DNA from: Girardia tigrina
Lineage: Eukaryota
DNA length: 64,000 nt
Reading direction: 5' to 3'
Assembly: GCA_001938485.1 (NCBI GenBank)
Contig: MQRK01186363.1
Span: forward strand, 9,320 to 73,319
Part shown: piece by piece, positions 1,516 to 61,790 of the stretch
How the letters are laid out: the number at the start of each line of letters is the position of its first letter
Position numbering within the stretch: the stretch's first letter is position 1
Made by a program: the position numbers and the translations under genes
The notes under the pieces: generated by a model
Database searches by the model: none
What the model was told of the DNA's origin: nothing
What the model saw: the letters and a program-made list of their open reading frames with translations, nothing else

Positions 1516-2573
1516 TTATTGTTCTTTAAACAGTGATATCTCAATGAACAATGAAATAAGTATCACTGAAGTGTGCGCCTCAACAAGCAGACAGATAATC
1601 TTGTAGTCCTCTGAACCGTAGAACGAGAGCAGGTCTAGAATATTACCGCTTTCAACTCGGAAAGGGTTTCCATTGAGTGTGTGGTTCGTGTCATAGTTGC
1701 TCGGCTCAGATAACCCTTTAATACTCCGTCGAAGAAATTGAAGAGAATAATATGATATGTCTGATTGGTAATCTATAAGGACGACGAATTATCTCCGATA
1801 TTTCCTTTGGCATACGTAACAAAGTCCATTCAATCGTCGTCTCTTACACAATTGGTGATCGAATATATCGATAGAATGTATCTCTTGAAACAGATTGCCA
1901 CATAGATCTTGCATTTAGAAATAGAAATATTTCCCCACGATCAAATTCAAATCATTTTGGCCGTGAAATTAAAAGTCAACTATGCAACAGTCACTTTTTG
2001 GGTTAGATGTGATCCATTATGACTTTATGAAACCTAGTTTATTGATCACAGCAGATGTTTAGTGCAACTAATTGGAAAATATAATAAAGAAACTCAAAGA
2101 AAGGCAACCGCGTTTGGTTTTCAGGTCGACTTCCATCTTTCTCCATAACAATATTATTAGTAACATCAATAGGAGGTTTACAACATTTATTAATATTACA
2201 AGCGCATTCACTATTTGACATCTCTCTTCATCAATATTTTTTCTGAGTTCAAACTAATTATTTTCAATAAATGAAAATCTGTTAATAAAAATTATCAATT
2301 ATAAAGAATCTAATTGGTTAAAATTAAATCTAAACATTTTTTAAAAAAGAACATATTAAATTAATATATTAAAATTTTAAATTACATTAAAAAATAAATA
2401 ATACATTCAAAAATTATTTTAAATCTTTTTACTTTAAAATTAAAATAAATTATTTTTAATTAGTAAGAATCAAAGATAATATCAATCATCCATCTATGTA
2501 GGAGAGGCGCAATCCAAATCAACATATACCATGCACAATATAAAACAACAAACAATTCAATACATTCCTCACA
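1516..2573 (-). repeat. LTR (second TGTGAGGA start nested in the 3' LTR) carrying a degenerate Cys-motif ORF
   Basis: TGTGAGGAATG start at 2573 duplicates the start at 2788. It shares CTCTCCTAC..GATGG and AACCAATTAGA blocks with the copies at 24566, 33930 and 61106. Confidence 0.7.
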
Positions 2574-2783
2574 GTCCTTATCTTTCTTCCAGATACATAC
2601 TATAGGTATCTTCTATTGTGAGTTACATTGTCTGATTATTCCGTAAGTGTCTCAGAGAAATCGTGCACAATATAGTGTTTTATAAAAAAACGAAACTTTT
2701 TTTTGATCATAATCAATAAATAATGCTCAAATAGTCCAGATGAATTAACATGCACAATATCAACACACTATTCAAAACATTCC

Positions 2784-3739
2784 TCACATCCCTCTCGGTT
2801 TAAATGGCTTTAGCCATTCAACATTTCTAATCAAAATTCTACCATCTTCGAGCTGTAACTCGTAACTCCATTCGTGATTTCGTTTCAACACAATTGCCGG
2901 ACCCATGTAACGGTCATCTTCTTTTGATATATTTGCTTTTTCTATCAACACTCTGTCTCCAACTTCAAAAACACTTTTTGTCTTCACATTTTGTTCGAAA
3001 TTAAGTTGGTTTCTGTTAGTTTCTTTATTGTTTTTCCACCAATGTCTTAATCGTCTCCCAAATATTATTTCAGCCGGTGAAACACCTGCCGTAGCTTGAA
3101 CTGTACTGTTCAACATAAATTCTATTTCCGACAAAACTTCTGTCCAATCTCTGCGGTTTCCGTCCTTCATTCTAATATTTATAGCATCTCTGATTGTTCG
3201 AAATTGTCTTTCCACTATCCCATTTGTATTATGATGATATGGACTTGAATAGATTATCACGATTTTGTACCTTTTAACTGTATCTTTGAACAAATCTGAT
3301 TCAAATGGTTTTCCTCTATCAACATGAATTTCTTTTGGAGGTCCAAATTTCCATATAACTGTTTTTTCATCTTGACTAGCAACTGCATGAAGGCTAATAT
3401 ATCTACTGAATTGGTCTACTATTGCAAGTACGTATTGATATCCGTTTACGTTTCTTTTGAATGGTCCACAGAAGCCCATGTATATTTTCTGGAAAGGTTC
3501 ATCTGCCAACAATTTTATATGTTTTTCTTTCGTTTTCGCTGTTAATGTCTTTTTTGACAATTTAAATAAGTTTGGACTATTTCTTTAATGACATTCCTCA
3601 TATTTTCCATGTCAAAATCTTCTCGAAGATAGTTATAGACTTTTTTACTACCAGCATGGCATAACAGCTTGTGCATCTCTTCAATAAAATCTGTTCGTTT
3701 TTCTTTTGGGATCCAGTATTTATTGTCCTGAGTTGCCAC
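2784..3739 (-). pseudogene. Gypsy integrase (H2C2 zinc finger, DDE core, C-terminal GPY/F-like region), frameshifted
   Basis: MHKLLCHAG...CQK, then YVLAIVDQFSRY, HVDRG..F, SPYHHNTNGIVERQFRT and RYMGP motifs, split over two ORFs. Confidence 0.93.
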
Positions 3740-3938
3740 GATGTCATTTTTTAGTGTCCATTTCCTCGTTTTCCCTTTTCTGATATCTTCAACAATTTAT
3801 TTTATTTCTTCATTATTCTTTTGCCATTTGAAACCCTCTGACTCTTCGTTCAATGCATGAATTCTCGTCTTGATCTTTCCTTTCTTGGCTTCTTCATGCA
3901 TCGTCTGACATTGGCTACACAATTCGCAAGAATTTTGA

Positions 3939-5038
3939 TTGGGTTGGCCAAAAAGTCATTGCGTTTTTTTACTAAAATATTTATTATCAAAAAATGACAT
4001 GGATGCACAAATATTTTTACACGATATACTGTCCATTATTTTCAATCACTTTCTTCCACCTTTCCGGTAGCTTCATTATTCCTGATTCATAAAAACCTTT
4101 GCCTTTGTCAGCAAAAACGCCGTCTAGGAACGATTTGATGTCATCATCACTGGCGAATGTTTTTTCTGTTTAAGGAATTCTGCAGGGATCTAAATAAGTG
4201 AAACTCCAATTGGGCCAAGTCTGGAGAATACGGCGGGTGCCGCAAAACCTTCCAACCCAGCGATAAGAGTTTCTGGTGAGTGGTCAAACTTGTATGCGGT
4301 CTTGCGTTATCATGCTGAATTACAACTGAATTTCTGATTTTGGGAACGTTTTGTCTATGATCGTCGGCGTTCCACATTGTTGTAAACAATCCATTTTTCG
4401 TCACCCGTAATCAAGCGCTTCAAAAATGGATCACTTTATTCTCACTTCAAAAGGGAATCGCAAATGTCTATGCGTTTCACCAAATGAATTTCTTTCAGTT
4501 CATGTGGTAACCACATATCGAATTTACTTACGAATTCAAGTTTCTTTAAATGACTTCCAACACTTTATTTTCATATTTCCAGAGTCTCTGCAACTTATCT
4601 TGTCGTCATATGTGGATTTAATTTGCTCAGTGATGTTATTTTGTCGCCATCAACTTCAACTGGTCGACCGGAGTGTGGTGCATCTTTCAGATGAAATTTT
4701 TCAGAACGAAATTTAGAAAACCAGTATTGACACTGTCGAAGTTTTNNNNNNNNNNNNNNNNNNNNNNNNNNNNNNNNNNNNNNNNNNNNNNNNNNNNNNN
4801 NNNNNNNNNNNNNNNNNNNNNNNNNNNNNNNNNNNNNNNNNNNNNNNNNNNNNNNNNNNNNNNNNNNNNNNNNNNNNNNNNNNNNNNNNACAAAATCAAT
4901 TAATATTTTGTATAAAAATAGTATGAAAATTAAGGTTTCAGAATATATAATTGAATTTAAATTTTATCACATCGTTTTATATTTTCAAGCTTTTTATTAG
5001 GACGTACTAAAAAACGCAATGACTTTTTGGGAACCCAA
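3939..5038 (-). mobile_element. Mariner (DD34D) transposon inserted in Gypsy pol; contains an assembly gap
   Basis: TIRs TTGGGTTGGCCAAAAAGTCATTGCGTTTTTT (from 3939) and its near reverse complement (ending 5038). TA at 5039-5040; left flank is GA. Motifs QHDNARPH, HPPYSPDLA and C-terminal GIMKLPERWKKVIENNGQY. Removing it rejoins NADAMS to KNSCELCSQCQ of pol. Confidence 0.95.
4746..4889. other. Assembly gap (N run)
   Basis: Run of N. Confidence 1.
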
Positions 5039-5040
5039 TA

Positions 5041-6476
5041 GACATCGCATCAGCATTTGAATGTTTCTCACCTTCCCGATATTCTATTTTCATGTCAAGA
5101 CCACTAAGAAAATTTATCCATGTTTGAAACTGTGGTGTAATAGCGTTTTTCGTAGTCATCATAAAAGTGATAGCTTTATGATCCGTTCGTAACAAAAATC
5201 TTTTCCCATATAAAAATGTTTAAAATGTTGAGTGAAATAATAAATTGCAAGCAGTTCTTTCCTTGTAATGCAATAACCAAGTTCATGTTAATTCATTTTA
5301 TGGGAACAATATGCAATTACTCTTTCTCTTCTACACATGACTTTCTATGATAGCACCGCTCCTATAGTATCAAAACTTGCATCTGTATCGAGTATAAAGT
5401 CTTTTGAAAAATCAGGGTATGCCAAAATTGGTGTCTTAATCATTCTCTCTTTTAATTTTTGAAAAGCTTCATCAGATTCTTCAGTCCAAATTAGTTTTTT
5501 ATCCTTGCTCTTACCACATAAGCCTTCTAAAACCTTTGCATATCTAGCGTAATCCTTTATGAATTTCCTGTAGTAATTCGTCAAACCCAAAAAGCTTCTT
5601 AAATGTTTGATACATGATGGGTTTTGAAATTTTCTAATTGCATCAATCTTTGTTTTATCTGTCATAATACCTTCTTTACTTATGACATATCCTAAAAATT
5701 TCGTTTTATCTACTAGGAATTGACATTTCTCTGGATTTATTCTCAAGCCGGATTCTTAAATTTTCTCAAATATGTTATGTATTCTTTGAAGATGTTCTTC
5801 TCTATCTTTTGCAAAAATCAAAATATCATCCAAATTTACGACTGCTTCTTTCCAATTCAAATCTTCTAGAACTTTCACCATTAATTCTTGAAAGGTAGCT
5901 GGAGCCGCTGCAATTCCAAAAGGCATTCTTTTAAAACAATATTGACCATTCTTTGTTGAAAANNNAGTTTTAATCTTTGAATCTTCTTCTAATTCAACCT
6001 GATAATATGCATTTCCCAGATCGATTGTACTAAAATATTTTGCTCCATTCAACGTGTTTAACATGTCATCCACATTTGGCATGGGAAATGCTGTTCTTAC
6101 CGGAATTTTATTTAACTGTCGAAAATCGACACATACTCGGATGACTTGTTTCTCTTTTTTTCCATACACACACCAGAGAGAAGTTCCATGGAGAACTACA
6201 CTTTTCGATTATACCGTTTTCTATAAAATTTCTAATGACATCATCTAGTTTCTCTTCAAAATGTTGTGGTAGTCGATAAGGCTTCACTAAGACTGGTTCT
6301 CCACGAGTTTCTATTTTGTGTTTCCTTAAGGAAGTTTTCCCAACATCCCACTTGTTAGCCAAGAGTATTGATTTATATTCTGTTAATAGTCTCATTAAAT
6401 CGTAGTCAACTTTGGTGTTAAATATTTTTTTAATTCTCTTTAGTCTGTTATCATCTGTTGTACTATCTCTAATCAT
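5041..6476 (-). pseudogene. Gypsy reverse transcriptase and RNase H, degenerate
   Basis: RVCVDFRQLN, YFSTIDLGNAYYQV, RMPFGIAAAPATFQ, NLDDILIF (YxDD variant), FLGLTNYYRKFI, ILDTDAS, TRKELLAI and LRTDHKA motifs, with internal stops and frameshifts. Confidence 0.95.
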
Positions 6477-6599
6477 CCATATGTCACTTGAATCTATAGT
6501 TTCCTTCTTTAGTTTTATTTCAAATTTATCCTGCTATCATTTCTGGGTTGATTTCTTTAACTACATAAAACTCTATAATTTTTTGTACTCCTTCAATTG

Positions 6600-6908
6600 T
6601 TACTTTTAATTTACCAATTCCATAATTTATAAGTTCTGAATCATTTGCACAATGAATGTGTTTACTCGTTTCTCTATCTGAACATATTTCATACTTTTAA
6701 GTATATCTACTTAAACAACATTTTCTTTGGCACCGGTATCCAAAAGACATTCAACATTCATATTCTTTGTATTAAATTCAATGTTTGGTCTTCCATTCAA
6801 TTTGTCATATCTAATATTGAGCTTTGATATTTTCAACATTTCTTCCTGTTTCAACTTTTGCGATTTTGTCTTTATCTCCTTATCAAAACAAATTCTTTTT
6901 TCCAACAA
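6600..6908 (-). pseudogene. Gypsy aspartic protease region
   Basis: RPNIEF...VECLLDTGAKENV, located between gag and RT. Confidence 0.85.
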
Positions 6909-7028
6909 TCTTATTCACAAACTTCGAGAGGGGTATCTTCCACCACACAATCACACATACAGTCATACATACAATTGCATACACAATCACATACACACAC
7001 ATTTTTACTTTTTAATGAAGCACACTGA

Positions 7029-8040
7029 TCACTTCCCCTTGTGATCGTACATCCTCGTTTCCCTGGTCTTTCTCTTATCTGTAATCATTTTTTGCCTCGA
7101 GTTTCCTTCATTTGATCGTGTTTCTTCATATTCGTTGTAATAGTTTTCATCATGCATTTCTGCAATATCATATCTTCGGTTTTGATGCCTCTGATGATTT
7201 TGAGGGTCATTTGCTCTTTGCCATTCATTTTTTCTGGCATCTTGGTCTCTTTCTTTAAATCTATTCTTGTTTATGTAGCATTGCGTCCTGATATGACCAT
7301 TTTTATTGCAATAAGAACACTTTATATTTGGACAGTTTCGTCTGATGTGACCTTCTTCGTGACATGTCCAGCATTTTACAACATTTGAATAATTATTTCT
7401 AGGTTTGTATTCATTATTTCTTTGATTAGTGTACCTATTTTCGAAATTTCTTTGTTGGTTGCGTTCTATATATTGTGGTTTACGTTTACCTACCGTTTTC
7501 CATTGATCATGTTTACCTACCGTGTTGTATGCCGCAACTGTTTCTTCTTTTTCCATTTTGCGTAGTTCATACATATTTAAAACTACATCTTTTATGTCCT
7601 TTGTTTCGGTAGCTCCTCTCAATTTCAATTCTCTTTTCACCTCATAATCGTCAACCATATTCATGAAAACAAGGTTGAGCAGCTTTTTCTTAGAAAGTTT
7701 ACTTTCTGTTAATATCGTTACTAATTCTTCGGCTTTTTGAACGTTTCTTCTGGATCTGAAGATCCCCACCGGAGATTTAAAATATCCTTCACTGTGTCGA
7801 GCAAAGATTTTTTTTCACAAATGACGTTTTAAGTTTTTCTTTATATGTATTTCCATCTGTTTCTGAAAATTTTGTGATTGCTGATGGAGTCATGAAGATC
7901 GTCACCATCACTAATCTTCTATCTTCTGTTATACCCATAATATCCGCATAACGTTCGAAATTTTTTATGAAGTCATCTAAGTTCCACTCGGATCCATCAA
8001 ATTTTTCGTGTCCCTTAATGTTCGTCTTTGTTGATAAATA
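7029..8040 (-). pseudogene. Gypsy gag with two CX2CX4HX4C zinc knuckles, frameshifted
   Basis: CWTCHEEGHIRRNC and CSYCNKNGHIRTQC. An upstream frame reads KFDGSEWNLDDFIKNFERYA, typical of a gag N-terminus. Confidence 0.9.
7057..7063 (-). promoter_or_regulatory. Putative -1 ribosomal frameshift heptamer GGGAAAC at the gag/pol junction
   Basis: CAG GGA AAC at the gag 3' end. The -1 frame is open for 50 codons (GKRGCT...). Confidence 0.6.
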
Positions 8041-13194: not shown

Positions 13195-14799
13195 GATAAT
13201 CACCGTTTTATGTTTGTCTTCTTCATGGATCGGAATTTGGTGGTAGGCTTTCTCCAGATCAATAGTCGAGAATATTTTGCAGTTACTGACGGCACTGAGT
13301 ATATCTGACATGCGTGGTAGTGGGTAGTGGTCGGGCTTTATTCTTTGATTTAATAGTCGGTAGTCACAACACGGCCTGTAAGAGCCATCACTTTTTTTAC
13401 CACTACTAGTTGTTTTACCACTACCTACCTTTTTTTACCACTACTACTACTAGCCCATTCGCTTTTACTCTCTCTGATAATTTTTTTGCAGCAAGTTCTC
13501 AAATTCTCGATGGACTGATTCAAGTATTTTCCCACCAATGCTACGGGCTCGTGGAAAAATTGGCTTTCCTTCAGTTTCGATATAAAATTTTGAACTTACA
13601 TTGTGCAATTGATCACTAGCCATAGTTTTAATTGATCTGCTGAAGCCATGGATAACGTTTTCATCAATTCGAATTTGGTTGTTTTGACAATCAACAATGG
13701 CATGGGCATATGCTAGGAAATCCGATCCTAGGATTGTTCGGTTGACATCTGTAACCACAAACTTCCACTGAAATTGTCGCTCGAGTCCAACTAATTGAAA
13801 AGTTATCGATTTGGTTCCGTAAACATTAATTGGAAAGTTGCTTACTGAAGTTAACTTTTCACTTGAGTTTGAATTGTCAGGTTGAAATTGTTTTGAGGGC
13901 AGAACGCTGACATCAGCACCAGAGTCTATGAGAAAATTAAATAGGCACCTCTGAGTTGTTGCAGGAATTGTTAAATGTTGGAGATTGAGGCCGGTTTTTG
14001 AGTTGATTCGATTCCCTGAGTCGGCTTTACAAGGAACCAGTCCATTTTCCCGAAGTATTGTTGTTCCATTTACAAGGTTGTTGGCATTTAACAGCTTTGG
14101 AACCGAAGTGATTATGATAATATCAGATTTTAGTGTTTGTTGCATCTCTAAAGCTTCTTTGTTTGAGTGCATTGATCTGCTCTCTTAAAATATATATTTC
14201 TGCAATCAATTACGATTCTCGTAATTCTGGCTGGCTTGTAACCGTGTTGATTGTTGAGTTGTGAGATAATTCCATCAGTAGGTCAGCCATTTCGGCTAGG
14301 TCATCAACATCTTTGTCATTTCGGTTGTTAGATGGAGCTGAATGTGAGAGGGTAAGGATCTAATAAAGAGATTACGTATTAGAAGTGAATCGTCATTTGT
14401 TGAACTTGACTGCAGTTCTGAAATGTTTCGTTTGATTTTTTGTTGAATTTCTGTCGGTTGTAAGTCACCGATGTTCTTCTGATCCAACAGTTCTTGTTGA
14501 TGGTATGCCTTTGACTTTTGCTTGAGTTTGATTATTCTTCGTTTTAAATCCAAGTATGGGGTGCTTGATGAAATGATTAGTTGATCTTGGACTAAGAGCA
14601 GGATACTTGGAGTAAGGCTGGCAAGAAGGTGGTAGCATTCAGCTTCTTCTTTGACGATATTCCTAATAGTGAAAATTGCTTCTACCTGTTGGAACCATAT
14701 TTGCGGATTATCAAAATACTGTGAAAATCTGATTGTGGAGTTCATTCTTGGCGAAATATGTCGAATTTCGTCGCTTCTGACACCATTTGAAAACGACAT
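13195..14799 (-). mobile_element. Gypsy fragment, CsRn1-like clade (gag, protease, 5' part of RT)
   Basis: gag NPQIWFQQVEAIF; CHCC motif (C)YYHNHFGSKAVKCQQPC; protease FLIDSGADVSVLP...ILGSDFL; RT KKSDGSYRPCCDYRLLN...FSTIDLEKAYHQIP. Confidence 0.85.
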
Positions 14800-15541
14800 T
14801 TTATAAAATAAGAAAAAAAACCCGCTTGACTTGGAAACTTTTTATTTTTCAAAAAGTGAATATTTAAACAAACTTAAAAATTAATAATTTAATTATTATT
14901 TTTTTGATAAGTAGAAATGTGTTTCTTATATTATCAAAATTTATTTTATATTTATATTATCAAAAGAAAATCAAAAAAATTTGAAAAAAAAGTTGAACCT
15001 TTGACATTTACTTTAAAAAACAATTTTTTGTTTGTTTTTTGTAAAAATTTTGGATTTTAAACAATAATTCGATGAAAGAAAAAAAATGGCATTTTTGCCA
15101 AGTTAAATTAATAATCGTAATATTAATCTTAAATAAATAAATCAAATTTTTGATTAAATCAAAAATTTTAATTTGTAATCGATTGTTTAAATCAATCATC
15201 GAAATAATATTGGTTTTGGCGCGTTTTTGTTATTGTGAATAATTTCTGTTGTGATTAAATTTGTCTCAATTTGTCTTGTGATTTAAAATTTGATTGATCT
15301 CAAACAATTTTTTGTATGGTTTGAAATCGTCGTTGCTGCGAGTGAAAATGTTCGAATTTGTTAGAGAAAATAAATTGAGATTGATAATAAAGATTTGCGG
15401 GAGTTCGAATTTTTTGATATTTTATGAACGAAATCAAAATATCCATCCATAATATATTGATCGCAAATATTAATGTTCTAATTAAACAAAGTAATCCATG
15501 ATTTAGGTTATGAAGTCAAAAAATTGATTGGAAATATCGAA

Positions 15542-17829: not shown

Positions 17830-18240
17830 TGAATAGCTTTACACCAATTTCAATTGAGAAACGGGTCCAGGTGCTTATCTTGTAAGAAGAAGGACATACT
17901 CATAACGCTAATGATGAACTTTCGAACATTCATTTCAAGTCTGTGTCTCATATTTTCAAAGGATATGCTGAAGCGGGTTCTATCCACGATCAATATCGTT
18001 CTGACCGTCCTAGGAAATCGACTCGAATGGATAACAAACTCATCAGATGTCTAAAATGAGGACGCTACTTCAAAACTGTTGCTCTTCTGATGAATTTTTC
18101 ATCCATTCCAGGCAATTTCCAAAGACGGCAAGAACGATGTCGATCATGAACAAAACCCATTTCAGCATATCTCTTGTGAACACAGACTTGAAATGAATGT
18201 CCAAACGTTCAGCAATAGCCTTATGAGTATGCCCTTATAT
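17830..18240. mobile_element. Tc1-like transposase 5' fragments in inverted (foldback) arrangement
   Basis: Plus frame IEKRVQVLIL*EEGHTH...SVSHIFKGYAEAGSIHDQYRSDRPRKST (HTH plus GRPR-like motif). A diverged reverse-complement copy lies at about 18086-18235. Confidence 0.75.
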
Positions 18241-23975: not shown

Positions 23976-24565
23976 TGGATATATAAATATAGATGGATAT
24001 ATAAATATGGACCGCCTAAAGAAATCCATGTGGATAGAGGCAAAACACTTGAATTAGAACTATTTAAAGAAACACTGAAGAAGTTTAAGATAGAAGTATT
24101 TTATTAAAGCCCATATCACCACAATACAAATGGAATTATAGAACGACAATTTAGAACAATTAGAGATGCTCTTAATATCAGAATAAAGGATGGAACGCAT
24201 AAAGATTGGACGGAAGTATTGTCAGAAATAGAATTTATGATGAATAGTACCATTCAAGCTACGACAGGTATCTCACCAGCAGAAATAATATATGGAAAGA
24301 AATTAAGACATTGGTGGAAAAATAAAGAAGATAAAGGAAACCAAATGGGAAAAGAAGGAAAAGCTCCATAAACGAGAAGAATTTTCAAAGTTGGAGACCA
24401 GGTATTGATAAAGAGAGAAAATGCATCAAAAGAAGACGACCGATATATTGTCCCTGCAATGATAATAAGACGGAGACATGAAAGAAGTTATGAATTGCAA
24501 CTCGACAATGGTAAAATATTAATAAGAAATGTAGAATGGCTAAAGCCATTTAAATTGTGGGGGGA
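23976..24565 (+). pseudogene. Gypsy integrase 3' half, same family as 2784-3560
   Basis: YGPPKEIHVDRGK...SPYHHNTNGIIERQFRTIRDA...RHWWKNK...IRNVEWLKPFK, ending in the PPT GGGGGGA at 24559-24565. Confidence 0.93.
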
Positions 24566-25530
24566 TGTGAGGGATAATTTGGAATATTGTAAGTTTGTTG
24601 TTTGTATGCTGTTTAGATTTGTGACTCTCCTACTCAGGTGGAATTGATATGTTAATTGATTGATTATTCGAATCTAATGAAATTAATTTAATGATATTAA
24701 TTTTAAGTACTAATTAATTAAAGTTTAATAATTATGAATTTTAATAATATTTTCAGTAAATGATTTTAACTTATTAAATGTAATATATTTTAAAAATTAA
24801 TGTTTATTTAAAAAATTACGTAATGACTTTTATCAATAAAAATTATGAGAAATTAAAATTTATTATTAAACTTTCCAATTCATTGTTTTTTTCGATTTAA
24901 ATATATTAACAAAAAACTATATCAATCAAAGAAAGATGACCAATGAAAATTATTGTGAAGAAACTGTTTGTGTTGTCAATAAATGTTTGCATTCAAATTG
25001 TGATGTTAATATTGAAAATTGTTCACTTGGAATTTATGACTCATCGAAACAATAATTCATTTCACCATTAATCAAGGCCAGTTCGAATGTGTATCAAATT
25101 TTATAGTCGAGTGACTGAATTCAAATGGCTCATTCTGATTGGTTAACCTTGAGTCAAACAGTTGAAGTTTCAAATAATTTTTTTTGAAAGTTTTGTGAAA
25201 TTGTCGAATTGAAATTTATTTTCGAATATTAATTTGAAATTTAAATCGATTGAGATATTTACAAACGTTAATTTGGAAATTTATTTACGAACTTAAACTA
25301 TCTGAAATTTTTTTCGTACGTTGAAACTATTTGAAATTTTTGTCGAATGATGAAACAATTGAAACTTTGTGGAACTTTTGATTTATTGTTCGAATTGTTT
25401 TTTTAATTTTATTCACAAAAAATTGGAGATAACGAACATGAAGTGCCAGAGTCGCTAAGAACCCACTGAGATTCTACCACTACCACCGTCTGGTCTTCGG
25501 AGCAACCTGGAGATCGGGTGGAACATTAAT
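24566..25530 (+). repeat. 3' LTR (right end undefined) with Cys-motif ORF at 24936-25055
   Basis: TGTGAGG directly after the PPT; CTCTCCTAC motif; ORF MTNENYCEETVCVVNKCLHSNCDVNIENCSLGIYDSSKQ. Confidence 0.75.
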
Positions 25531-26108
25531 TAAAAATAAAGTATAGAAATTCAAATTAAAAAATAATTTAAATGTTAATTTTTCCATATTCATTAATTTC
25601 AGAAAAACGTTATTCAAAAAATTATTGTTTCATTGAGTTATTCATAAAAAAACATTCCGATAATTTAATATTACATTTCGTCTTATCAAAAGAGTTTGAT
25701 CAGAGTATAATATCGTAATTAAATAAAAAATACCGACAATATTTTTTAATCATAAGTTTGCTCAGTAATTAAAAATGTCGAATAATATTAATTATACATA
25801 ATTTTCATCTGTATCTTCTAAAAAGCAAAGTCGTCTCACAAAATCGGCATTAAAATGTATTGTCTATTTTCTAAATGTTTTTTATGCAATACAGAGTTTT
25901 TATCATCCTTTAATAATATTTTTAAAAGCAAAATACATTTACAATAATTAATTTGTTGTTTTTTTGCGGTTTAGGAATTATTGAAATAGTTATATATATA
26001 TGTATATATAATTTGATACACATTTGAACTGGCCTTGATTAATGGTGAAATGAATTATTGTCTCGATGAGTCATAAATTCCATTTTTGAATATTAAATTT
26101 ATTCCCAA

Positions 26109-28255: not shown

Positions 28256-29075
28256 AAAAAAATAAATTTAATAATTAATTGCATTTATTTTCTTTATAAT
28301 TATTAATTTATTATTATATTAATTAAGTAAAATTAAGCCAGAGAAATTTTAGATCGTTCAAGTAGATTATTATTTAGAAATGTCGAACAAATGACTTTTT
28401 TACAACAAAAATGAATGGAAAAAATTGAGATACCAATTTTTTTCTAATCAGAAAAAATAACAGAAAATTTTTCTTAATATAAGGTAAATTTGTAATCATT
28501 TTTTGCATTAAATATTTATAGAAAATCTATTTAAACATAAATTATCTTTAGACAGAATCATGATAGTTTTTAATTTGATTATTTATATGTTGAAAGATTA
28601 AGAAATTAAATTAAATATAAAAAATTAATTCTTAAAAAAAGGAAATCAATTCCAAAAAAATGATTTACAAAAATTTTCTTATAAAAATATTTCTTCAAAT
28701 TTATACACTTATTCCAATATATATTTATTTTTTTTCAATAAAAACTAATTAAAAAAGTTCAAATAAATATTGAAAATTAATCATTGTCATAATATAAAAT
28801 TAAAAATATTTAAAAAATATACAGATAAAATACAAAAGTAATTTATTTATTTTGGCAATATATTTGATTATTTAATTATTGAAATAATTACAAATTAATT
28901 TATTAAAATTATCCATTATTATTCATTGTTTTTTTTTCAAAGTAAAACGGGAGCGGTTGTATATTAAAGTATAAAATATTTTTTTCATAGCAAAAAATAT
29001 GAAAATAATGCTTTGTGATAAAAACTTAAAATATTATTTAGATGAATCAAAAATCAGTTTGTATAAAATTGTTAG

Positions 29076-29438
29076 TTACACTCGTAGGTAGAAATCGTAG
29101 TAAAATATATTCAAGAAATTCAAATAATTTGAGGATGAAAATGAGCTATAAAACTCAAATATTTAGAACGACAATGTCTAAAAGGATAATTAAAAAAACA
29201 TCATTCATTACTACCATCTTAAAGTCATAATATACAGGGTCATAATATAAGTCATATAATATACTAGTCATATAATATAATATACAAAGTCATAAGATGG
29301 TGGTAATGAATGATGTTTTTTTAATTATCCTTTTAGACATTGTCGTTCTAAATATTTGAGTTGTAGAGCTCATTTTCATCCTCAAATTATTTGAATTTCT
29401 TGAATATATTTTACTACGATTTCTACCTACGAGTGTAA
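29076..29438. repeat. 146-bp near-perfect inverted repeat with a 71-bp tandem-repeat spacer
   Basis: Arms 29076-29221 and 29293-29438 differ at 3 positions by my count. The spacer is built from GTCATA(ATATA) units. Confidence 0.92.
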
Positions 29439-29442
29439 TTAC

Positions 29443-30450
29443 CAGTATTGGTTTCTCGTCAAACATTGTAATACCGGTAATACCGGTATTGGTCATGAAA
29501 AATGAAACTTTAAAAATCATTTATGTATTTTGATTTATTATAAAAATGACAGTATTTTTATCTAATAATCTTAAAGATTTAAGGATAAGACCATCTAATT
29601 TTTAAAAACTAATTAATTAATACAATTTGTTCTAAAAATATTATCACAAGAAGTTCAAGAAGAAGATCAAAAACTGATTAACTAATTAAATTGATTAAAT
29701 AAATATGAGCACAAGAAGCAAAAACAATCCAAAGTAGAGTCAATCATTCCGGATCGTATCTTACAAAAGAAACCCGCAGCACAAAGGCCTCTGCTTCAAT
29801 ACTTGATGGAGCGATTGCCAATAGAGCTTGATATAAGAATTCCAAATATTTTCCCCTGGTATCCATAAACAGTTTAAATTCTACTGTGAGGATGTTTCTG
29901 ATATTTTTTGAGCCTTTCAGTTTTAGTACTATCATTTGATGAAAATTTTTTTGAATCATTAAATGCTATTTTTCCTTCATTGACAAATTTTCTGGTTCAG
30001 ATGGCTGCGCTGTCTCTGGACTGTTAATTATTTGAACTGGTAAATCGAGAGCAGTATTTAACTTTTCCTCACTGGAAAAGCCCAGTCAGCTTTTTAATGA
30101 AGATTTGAAAGTATTCATCGTTGTCATTTATATAACTGTCCGAATTATGTAAGAGAGTCAATAAATATGAGAATTTTGTTCGTCTTTCATCAATGACTTA
30201 AAATAAACTATCTTTTAGTTTATTACTTAGCCATTTTTTGTTTAGATAATTCCTCCAGCGTGAACTTAAAAATGATGACTGCAGACAGTAAATATACATC
30301 TGAAGAAGAAAGAGTCTCAACAGCAGCTTTTGTCGGTTCTAAAGCATGTATTATTAAGAAATTAAATGCATACTTTTTCCATTGCGAGTAGATTTTGATT
30401 AGATTTGTGACACCATTCACTACCCCAAACTCAATATTCAATTGCATTAC
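29443..30450 (-). mobile_element. hAT transposon 3' fragment
   Basis: LEPTKAAVETLSSSDVYLLSA and RGKYLEFLYQALLAIAPSSIEAE (dimerisation motif). AATACCGGT subterminal repeats at 29470-29490. Confidence 0.8.
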
Positions 30451-33929: not shown

Positions 33930-34900
33930 TCATTCTAAATTGTTTGTTGTTTTGTAAATTGAAAGTTGTATGTTGATTCGAATTGTCTCTCCTACCCAAA
34001 TGGATGATTGGTATTTTCTTTGATTCATACTAATTGAAAAGTTTCCGAATGTAATGTTTAATTTTAATGTAATTCAAAATTTTAATATATTAAGTTAATT
34101 ATTCAGAAAATATCAAAATGATGGCACCTTCTGTTTAAAAAAAACACGTCATTTGTACAATAAAAATTTATTTATAACAATTAATTTCGACGGTATAACC
34201 GTCATCGTCAGGTCTCAAGAAAAAATGAGCTTTAAATCTGCTTATTTTGGCAAGCAGTGATTATGTCATCAATTGATTATTATGTAACCTAAATACGCTC
34301 AATAGGGTTTTCGAGACACCTGTTTGGCACATTAATCTTAGGATCTAAAGATATGATACATAGTGCTTCACAGGCCACTCTCTCCCAATAGTTTCTAAAA
34401 CAAATATTAATTTAATTAGTACTTTTTTAAAAAAAAATGTTTAGATTGGATTTTAACCAATTAGAGTTTTGATAATTAATTTTTAAGGGATATGTGGTAT
34501 AGTTTTATTTGAAGAATTGTTATAATGAAAATTCTATTTGTAATAATAATAAATGTTCAAAAAGTCATATTGACTTTGATATTAATAATCGAATTCAAAT
34601 TATCATATTGAATCAATTATCTGACTCTGAATTAAGCAAAAGATTCTTCAAAAACAAATACCGTATTTCTTCTATTACAGCGACTTGTTCCATTAGACCG
34701 ACATGATGACTACCATTCGAAACAATAGAGTAGCATTGCTTAATTAGAGCGACATTAGATTGTCAGATTGATATTGATCCATTGTTGTATTTTACGGAAA
34801 CTTTCAATACTTCCCCTTTTATAATATATATAAAATACCCTATTCTAAGACTATTGGTATCAAACTTCCTATCCCGATTTTGTGTTGGTTCTGAAAGATA
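33930..34900 (+). repeat. LTR copy with Cys-motif ORF remnant (34509-34706)
   Basis: 33930-34040 and 34430-34480 align with the reverse complement of 2560-2460 and 2345-2285. Translation KNCYNENSICNNNKCSKSHID. Confidence 0.72.
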
Positions 34901-56630: not shown

Positions 56631-57540
56631 TCAATTAATTCCAATGTCAATCGGGTTAATAAAACAAAAATTGTCAAAATTTTTACATAAAACACTAAAT
56701 TCCTTATCACTCCCTATATTTTCTCGATCCCTACAATTCAATATATGATTAAGAATGGAACTGTTTCGACTCGATTGAGTATGTTCAGCAATTCTAGTTC
56801 GAAGATGACGACTTGTCTCTCCAATGTACAAGGCTTCGCACTTGTGACATTTAAACTGATATACTATATTTGCCTGCACACTCAATGGAGTTTTGGATTT
56901 ATTAGAAAAGAAACCAGAAACTTTATTTGTGGTAAAAATTACCCTCAATTTAAAAATTGAAGGAGTTCTTTTCATTAATGAATTTTTGAAATCTTTTGCT
57001 CCCTCAGAAAATGGTATCTTTAAGGTAATGTTTAACAAATTCTCAGTGTTATTTGGAACTTCGATTATGTTGTGACTTTTATTATTTGATTTCCTAAATA
57101 TGGAGTCAATGGCATCTTTAATTAGCTTATTTACATAATTTTTACATAATTGTAGGGATCAAGAATTTAGTGTTTTATGTAAAAATTTTGACAATTGTTA
57201 ATTAAGCATTATAAACCATGCTTAAATGTTCAAAGTGATTCCTCAAATTATATTAAAATATTTTAATTCTTAGTTTTTTTGTCTTCTGTTTCTTTTAAGT
57301 TTTCTTCTTTTTTGTTTTTTTTTGAATAAAAAATGAAAATTTTGAATATTTATTTTTTAAAAGTTTTTTCTTGTTAATTTTTTTTTAAATTAAAGTAAAT
57401 AATAATAATAAAAACAGCTTTAAATTGAGTAGTATTGCGTAACAGTCTACCGCTATATAAAAAAAGGACTTAAATCTGAAATTTCAATTAGTCAACTGAA
57501 GATGCCAATATGGCGAAACTAGTATTGGAAATAAATTTTT
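56631..57540 (-). mobile_element. Penelope-like element: GIY-YIG endonuclease fragment with inverted pLTR
   Basis: IVYQFKCHKCEALYIGETSRHLRTRIAEH. 57150-57195 is an inverted copy of 56670-56735 and leads to a plus-strand hammerhead motif. Confidence 0.88.
57492..57528 (+). ncRNA. Minimal type I hammerhead ribozyme motif
   Basis: TCAA CTGAAGA TGCC AATA TGGC GAAA CTAG TA TTGG, followed by AATAAA. Confidence 0.8.
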
Positions 57541-61105: not shown

Positions 61106-61790
61106 TGTGAGGAATATTTTAAATTGTTTGAATGTGTAAATGTATTGATGCGGTATGTTGATTTAAGGATGTTGAATTTAGAATGGTGATTCTCCCACCC
61201 AGATGGAAATTGGTATTTTTTATTTAAATTTAAAGTGATTGACTATTCGAACATAATTAAAATAATCATTTGATAAGTTTATATTTTTAATTTCAGAATT
61301 AAAATTAAGTTTAATAATTTTTAGTGAAATTTAAATTAAATGCATTTTTAATAATTTGATGACATTTTTATTATTTTTAGATTTATTTAAAAATGGTAAA
61401 AATTATTATTTTTTTAATTAATATTTTTAGAGGTTAAATATTTTTAAAAATAATTTAGAAAAATTGTTCGAATAATCATGATTAAAAACAGAATTAAGAA
61501 AACCAATTAGAAGGATGACAAACGATGAAAGACTTTCTGAGAGTCATAATGACTCTAAATGTAATTGTAATAAACATTCAAACGAGACTTGTTTAAATGT
61601 TCTTAATAATAATCATTATTAAAAATTCAGAAACAACACTAATTAGATCAATGACAAAATATTAACTTCTAAGAGTTGTGATGACTCTAAATGTTATATT
61701 AATAAATGTGTGAATAGTAATTGTATTTATGCTCTTCACATTAACTTATGGGAAGACATTTCTGACAACCTAGTTTATTTTTTGTGACCT
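61106..61790 (+). repeat. LTR copy (TGTGAGGA family) with a duplicated Cys-motif ORF remnant at 61515-61787
   Basis: TGTGAGGAATATT start and CTCCCACCCAGATGG motif. Frame reads MTNDERLSESHNDSKCNCNKHSNETC...*...*...SCDDSKCYINKCVNSNC. Confidence 0.75.

What the first reader, a model, noticed from the sequence alone, without database searches (positions are those of the whole stretch)
24566..25055. Gypsy LTR family that carries a conserved Cys-motif ORF inside the LTR
Seen: four diverged copies of the TGTGAGG-starting LTR (2573 minus, 24566, ~33930, 61106) each have a sense-strand frame 350-410 bp into the LTR (about 580 bp in the 33930 copy) with the same motif. The translations are SECACNINKCCKPPID (2221), YCEETVCVVNKCLHSNC (24936), CYNENSICNNNKCSKSHID (34509), and HNDSKCNCNKHSNETC plus CDDSKCYINKCVNSNC in one frame (61515). 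Two start MTN[ED] after GAA[AG]G. The 24566 copy directly follows integrase and PPT, so it is LTR sequence. Cys and NK positions persist while neighbouring residues change. Known precedent for LTR-overlapping genes is retroviral (MMTV sag, HIV nef, foamy virus bel). Inference: an uncharacterised, possibly metal-binding accessory protein of this family.
Basis: partly seen in the sequence, partly recalled or inferred. Interest (0 to 1): 0.78.

Follow-up and report, generated by a model that had tools for sequence, protein, structure and literature searches.

The report
Gag protein starting inside the LTR
The cysteine-rich reading frame at the end of these jumping-gene repeats is not a separate gene: in complete copies it runs without a stop into the element's capsid gene, so it is likely the first 22 to 32 amino acids of that protein, written over the repeat's likely poly(A) signal, a layout already known from yeast Ty1.

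Summary
The motif is real but is not an accessory gene. The LTR is only about 450 bp (24566-25011) and the frame fills its last 75 bases; the reported stop lies in flanking DNA. In 5' LTRs elsewhere in the genome the frame reads through the tRNA-Arg primer site into gag. In 9 subfamilies the last 60 LTR bases carry a stop in the gag frame in 9 of 88 copies, against 48 and 88 in the other frames and 83 of 87 further upstream. 'NK' is AATAAA, 27-42 bases from the LTR end, a likely poly(A) signal. Amino-acid constraint is weak to moderate (dN/dS 0.3-0.9 by method). Of 49 distant Gags, 39 have such a leader and none of those has two cysteines, so metal binding is unsupported. Best reading: a Ty1-like Gag start inside the LTR, in a Gypsy lineage; translation and RNA start are inferred, not measured. 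The scan noted this layout before on other DNA.

The parts
24566..25011 (+). 3' LTR of subfamily B, 446 bp, TG...TA ends
   Evidence: similarity between copies stops at this end; solo copies show 5-bp target duplications
24936..25010 (+). Gag-leader stub, 25 codons here (26 in most B copies; this copy lacks one codon); no stop inside the LTR
24978..24983 (+). AATAAA, likely poly(A) signal, read as Asn-Lys
   Evidence: AATAAA at this place in 77 of 79 copies counted
24558..24565 (+). polypurine tract before the LTR
23997..24565 (+). 3' fragment of the integrase gene
   Evidence: 75% match to the integrase at 2765-3356; Pfam rve on that ORF
2155..2573 (-). LTR of subfamily A (419 bp); leader stub of 22 codons from 2221
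2784..8030 (-). decayed gag-pol of subfamily A (two zinc knuckles, RT, RNase H, integrase); its 5' LTR is missing
33930..34587 (+). degraded LTR of subfamily C: 5' end lost, insert near 34110-34400, leader broken by a frameshift
61106..61608 (+). solo LTR of subfamily D (503 bp, target duplication ATAAT); leader stub of 31 codons from 61515
61609..61740 (+). 3' end of an older related LTR (ends in CA) next to the D solo LTR; source of the second motif
   Evidence: (75-77% to D-type LTR ends); boundary read by eye

Best explanation
The Cys frame is the 5' end of the gag gene, which in this Gypsy lineage begins inside the LTR: an ATG 66-96 bases before the LTR end opens a frame that crosses the LTR end and the tRNA-Arg primer site and continues into the capsid, so Gag is likely made with a short, likely unstructured N-terminal leader. 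Shown: LTR limits, frame continuity, lack of stops, in-frame length changes, primer identity. Inferred: transcription starts a few bases before that ATG; ribosomes start there and so bypass out-of-frame ATGs that lie between it and the ATG formed by the last LTR base plus the primer site; the same bases serve as the poly(A) signal in the 3' LTR. In 3' and solo LTRs, as in all four window copies, only a stub is left that runs into flanking DNA.
For: Frame runs from the LTR ATG through the primer site into gag in B, A and D 5' LTRs. Nine subfamilies assigned from the gag side only: copies with a stop in the last 60 LTR bases are 9, 48 and 88 of 88 in the three frames; first 60 gag bases 6, 86, 62 of 88; upstream windows in the gag frame 83 of 87, 74 of 84, 72 of 81. 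AATAAA lies 27, 36, 39 or 42 bases from the junction, always a multiple of three in the modal copy; in a distant family whose 8-codon leader starts after the AATAAA the distance is 34 (read by eye). In 8 of 9 subfamilies the furthest-upstream shared ATG within 100 bases is in the gag frame; the one H copy lacks it but P0004 has it. Codon-model dN/dS of the 22-codon core 0.44 against 1.26 and 1.61 in the other frames and a column-shuffled median of 0.99 (0 of 40 as low). 39 of 49 distant Gags with the junction motif have an in-frame leader, against 16-27% expected. Ty1 has the same layout (PMC5454406 passages).
Against: No RNA start, ribosome or peptide data: the four runs laid were contigs with a DNA-like pattern. 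Pairwise pN/pS between subfamilies is 0.89 (median of 28 pairs) with no third-position excess, against 0.40 for gag. On ungapped copies dN/dS is 0.90 in A (7 of 20 shuffles as low), 0.32 in B and 0.57 in D (1 of 20 each). The estimate used a protein-guided alignment of stop-free copies (60 of 90), which favours a low value. The junction Met is invariant in 51 Gags and 10 of 49 distant Gags are called from it, so it can be a start. An initiator-like YCAATY 12-19 bases before the ATG is seen in only 6 of 9 subfamilies. Gene callers prefer upstream starts and subfamilies share ancestry, so the counts are not independent.
Confidence: 0.72

Rival explanations
1. The leader is translated and its cysteines have acquired a function of their own in this genome's subfamilies (lipid attachment, disulfide or metal binding), possibly on a long Gag form beside a short form started at the junction ATG.
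For: 2-4 Cys in 7 of the leaders from this genome's subfamilies; one Cys three codons before NK is kept in 7 of 9 subfamilies; dN/dS below 1 in B and D; both ATGs have a purine at -3.
Against: 0 of 39 distant leaders have two Cys; subfamily K and P0007 lack the pattern; the kept Cys is TGT in the majority codon of all 7 subfamilies, as a DNA signal would be; leader pLDDT about 50 with no secondary structure; no third-position excess between subfamilies.
Confidence: 0.13
2. The stretch is only a DNA or RNA signal (TG-rich words around AATAAA plus the integrase end); Gag starts at the junction ATG and the open frame is a by-product or a relic.
For: NK is AATAAA with no synonymous change; pairwise pN/pS near 0.9; junction Met invariant; AATAAA is the best conserved motif of animal Gypsy LTRs (PMC3601003 passages).
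Against: A cis signal does not explain that every length change between subfamilies is a multiple of three, that stops are missing only in the gag frame, or that most distant Gags have an in-frame upstream start. The lack of AAC/AAG is weak evidence, since the whole leader is AT-rich.
Confidence: 0.12
3. A separate LTR-encoded accessory protein with a metal-binding Cys motif, like retroviral sag, nef or bel.
For: Open frame with ATG and repeated Cys in four window copies.
Against: No stop inside the LTR; after the LTR end the translation differs in every 3' or solo copy; in 5' LTRs it is gag; no fixed ligand pattern.
Confidence: 0.03

Closest known systems
Ty1 of Saccharomyces cerevisiae (Ty1/copia)
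   Same: Gag starts before the primer site and the primer site is coding: 53-nt 5' UTR, primer site at RNA nt 95-104, primer-site mutations designed to keep the Gag sequence (PMC5454406, passages; PMC4974528, passages).
   Different: This element is Gypsy-type (RT-RNase H-integrase order), uses tRNA-Arg(ACG), has two zinc knuckles, a second in-frame ATG built from the LTR end plus primer site, and the likely poly(A) signal inside the leader.
Animal Ty3/Gypsy (Metaviridae) LTRs
   Same: TG start, AATAAA near the 3' end (PMC3601003, abstract and passages), primer site, purine tract, capsid fold nearest dArc1 (E 0.003, not below 0.001).
   Different: Most subfamilies end in TA, not CA; gag starts inside the LTR, whereas the Ty3 primer site is described as adjacent to the 5' UTR. 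Not placed in a named clade.
MMTV sag, HIV nef, foamy-virus bel (features recalled, no call)
   Same: Coding sequence overlaps an LTR.
   Different: Those are complete ORFs with their own stop reaching into U3 of the 3' LTR; this one lies at the far end of the LTR, has no stop and is part of gag.
sORF1 and sORF2 of Drosophila MDG1/412 elements (10.1101/2025.03.14.642691, passages)
   Same: Small coding frames upstream of the capsid in a Gypsy-type element.
   Different: Those are separate ORFs of about 110 and 70 residues with shown products; this one is 22-32 codons, in the LTR and fused to Gag.

Membership tests
Ty3/Gypsy LTR retrotransposon | pol order RT, RNase H, integrase after gag | tested here: met
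   minus-strand element 7814 to 2784
Ty3/Gypsy LTR retrotransposon | paired LTRs with target duplication, primer site and purine tract | tested here: met
   L061: 4747 bp, two 451-bp LTRs, 5-bp duplication; primer site matches tRNA-Arg(ACG) genes
Ty3/Gypsy LTR retrotransposon | canonical TG...CA ends | tested here: not met
   TG...TA in A, B, D, E, F, H, I; CA in G, K and the distant family. A variant end, not grounds to leave the group.
Named Gypsy clade (for example Mag) | RT groups with reference members of the clade | not tested
   no named reference among 100 RT relatives; the resemblance to Mag is recalled only
Ty1-like Gag start inside the LTR | in-frame ATG in the LTR, open through the primer site into gag | tested here: met
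Ty1-like Gag start inside the LTR | RNA starts upstream of that ATG and it is used | not testable with these tools
   only contigs available, DNA-like
Retroviral LTR-overlapping accessory gene | complete ORF with its own conserved stop, separate from gag | tested here: not met
Cys-based metal-binding motif | three or four Cys/His ligands at conserved spacing | tested here: not met
   one Cys column in 7 of 9 subfamilies; no invariant Cys in the leader of 51 Gags while the zinc knuckle is invariant; 0 of 39 distant leaders with two Cys

The most novel reading that the evidence does not exclude
This lineage makes two Gag forms from one RNA, a long one from the LTR ATG and a short one from the ATG built at the LTR-primer junction, and the subfamilies in this genome have turned poly(A)-signal DNA into a cysteine-rich tag that targets or cross-links the long form.
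Probability: 0.12. Interest if true: 0.55.

Novelty: new variant of a known kind. Interest (0 to 1): 0.3.

Why it matters
It removes a false candidate accessory gene and documents a compact design in which about 80 bases likely serve at once as poly(A) signal, integrase end and protein code in a large unnamed Gypsy group. Every solo LTR would leave a promoter with a start codon and an open stub aimed at host DNA. It also warns that gag annotations begun after the primer site may miss the N-terminus. The layout itself is known from Ty1; three full-text searches for it in Gypsy elements found no relevant paper in the held library, which lacks most subscription journals.

Tried and rejected
RNA evidence: 19 runs listed, all contigs; 4 laid show LTR depth far above internal depth and loose ends at LTR borders, as DNA would; no start or poly(A) site could be read. 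Long LTR with an internal gene: rejected by boundaries and target duplications. Two motifs in one ORF at 61515: rejected. Clade naming by RT relatives: no useful names among 100 hits; PMC4202319 (passages) describes single-ORF microsporidian groups and gave no placement. Search for CA-ended relatives with the same junction pattern gave 1 match; CA-ended ones came from protein searches. P0007 has no close copy in this genome (best 41%), so its leader could not be placed in an LTR. No 5' LTR of subfamily C was found, so C is not among the nine. An inosine trace in one tRNA copy was dropped because one genomic gene has the same anticodon. Fold search gave no match below E 0.001. Papers PMC7055915 and PMC7175516 (passages) did not state the Ty1 start position; PMC11042837 (passages) was not used.

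Full report
Observation. The peptides reported at 2221 (minus), 24936, about 34509 and 61515 are in the sequence. The 24566 copy follows an integrase fragment and a purine tract. Three details fail. The 33930 copy has no TGTGAGG start. The two motifs at 61515 are split by two stops. The frame at 24936 has no stop inside the LTR.

LTR limits. The window's genome (1.43 Gb, AT-rich; other notes of the scan call it flatworm, not tested here) holds many copies: 4561 first-look candidates for the B query and 1794 exact matches to an LTR-end plus primer-site pattern. Similarity between B copies stops about 450 bases from the start. 59 of 60 loci (three are repeats of others) end in TTAATA 446-452 bases from the start, and 17 of the 30 loci are solo LTRs with 5-bp duplications. 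So the window LTR is 24566-25011, the motif is its last 75 bases, and the reported stop is flank. A is about 415 bp and D about 503 bp. The D copy is a solo LTR beside the end of an older related LTR, which supplies the second motif.

Continuity with gag. 4 of those 30 loci are 5' LTRs followed by TGGCGACC. L061 is a whole element of 4747 bp with a 5-bp duplication; its frame runs from the LTR ATG through the primer site into gag. The last LTR base and the primer site form a second in-frame ATG.

Frame test. 97 junctions were found, 7 dropped for a poor gag match, and 90 assigned to 9 subfamilies from the gag side only. Copies with a stop in the last 60 LTR bases: 9 of 88 in the gag frame, 48 and 88 in the others. 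First 60 gag bases: 6, 86, 62 of 88. Upstream windows in the gag frame: 83 of 87, 74 of 84, 72 of 81. Leaders are 22, 25, 26, 31 or 32 codons. AATAAA sits 27, 36, 39 or 42 bases from the junction. Out-of-frame ATGs lie between the two in-frame ones in A, B, D, E and G. In a distant family the leader is 8 codons and AATAAA lies outside it at 34 bases (by eye), so the hexamer keeps its distance from the LTR end whether or not it is coding.

Selection on residues. The results disagree and both are given. Pairwise pN/pS between subfamilies has a median of 0.89 (28 pairs, 0.50-2.09) with differences spread 36/32/32% over codon positions; the first 49 gag codons give 0.40 and 26/22/52%. A codon model on the same 60 stop-free copies gives 0.48 for the leader and 0.46 for gag; for the 22-codon core 0.44, against 1.26 and 1.61 in the other frames and a shuffled median of 0.99, none of 40 as low. 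On ungapped copies with an independent tree: A 0.90 (44 of 56 copies kept), B 0.32 (70 of 73), D 0.57 (47 of 53), with 7, 1 and 1 of 20 shuffles as low. The open frame is firmly kept; the residues only loosely.

The motif. NK is AATAAA in 77 of 79 copies counted; AATAAA is the best conserved motif of animal Gypsy LTRs (PMC3601003, abstract and passages). One Cys three codons upstream is kept in 7 of 9 subfamilies as TGT; others move. All 7 proteins have a leader. Of 75 proteins examined, 49 have a leader, 10 start at the junction Met and 16 lack the motif; outside the subfamilies matched to this genome it is 39 of 49, lengths 3-38, none with two Cys, 2 with NK. Chance of an upstream in-frame start measured on upstream LTR DNA is 16% (ATG) to 27% (ATG, GTG, TTG); gene-caller bias and kinship weaken this, and no DNA was seen for these proteins. 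In 51 aligned Gags the junction Met and the zinc knuckle are invariant, no leader residue is. The model of P0001 has pLDDT about 50 and no secondary structure over residues 1-40, and 85-96 over the capsid; nearest fold dArc1 capsid, E 0.003.

Primer. tRNA-Arg(ACG) gene arrays end in the complement of the primer site, and tRNA ends with CCA are joined to LTR ends elsewhere in the genome.

Mechanism. Shown: boundaries, frame, primer match. Inferred: the RNA starts just before the LTR ATG (an initiator-like word 12-19 bases upstream in 6 of 9 subfamilies), the ribosome starts there, and Gag carries a flexible leader that may be dispensable, as 10 distant Gags suggest. The same bases would act as poly(A) signal at the 3' LTR. 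RNA data could not test this.

Known and new. Ty1 has a 53-nt 5' UTR with the primer site at nt 95-104 inside GAG (PMC5454406, passages; PMC4974528, passages). Searches for this layout in Gypsy elements found no relevant paper (listings only); supplements were not read. The scan's own notes record the layout in at least 4 other genomes; my reading was set before that look-up and those notes are not counted as support.

Verdict. A real feature, misread: a Ty1-like Gag start inside the LTR of an unnamed Gypsy group, not a new metal-binding accessory gene. New variant of a known kind, interest 0.3.

Noticed in passing
L274-L278, L282-L286: In 10 of the 14 loci examined, the 3' part (once the whole) of tRNA-Arg plus CCA is joined to other DNA; in 4 this is by eye the reverse complement of an A-, D- or F-type LTR end. 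The genomic tRNA genes have no CCA. These look like inserted reverse-transcription products that copied the primer, and they fix both the primer and the LTR end.
   Followed up: partly
window 25028-26082: Element with 78-bp terminal inverted repeats (96%) starting 16 bases after the LTR end; likely a non-autonomous DNA transposon.
   Followed up: no
window 2574-2788 minus: A partial second LTR start directly after integrase, 215 bases before the full LTR; the integrase stop falls in its first bases.
   Followed up: no
window 13465-14841 minus: Another retroelement gag-protease (Pfam DUF7041 and RVP).
   Followed up: no
window 56631-57158 minus: GIY-YIG frame, Penelope-like.
   Followed up: no
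window 29065-29449 and 17890-18236: Long near-perfect inverted repeats, probably miniature DNA transposons.
   Followed up: no
L253-L272: A distant family in the same genome with a 243-bp LTR, an 18-base primer match and an 8-codon Cys-poor leader after the AATAAA.
   Followed up: partly
L052: An A-type LTR is nested inside a B-type gag.
   Followed up: no
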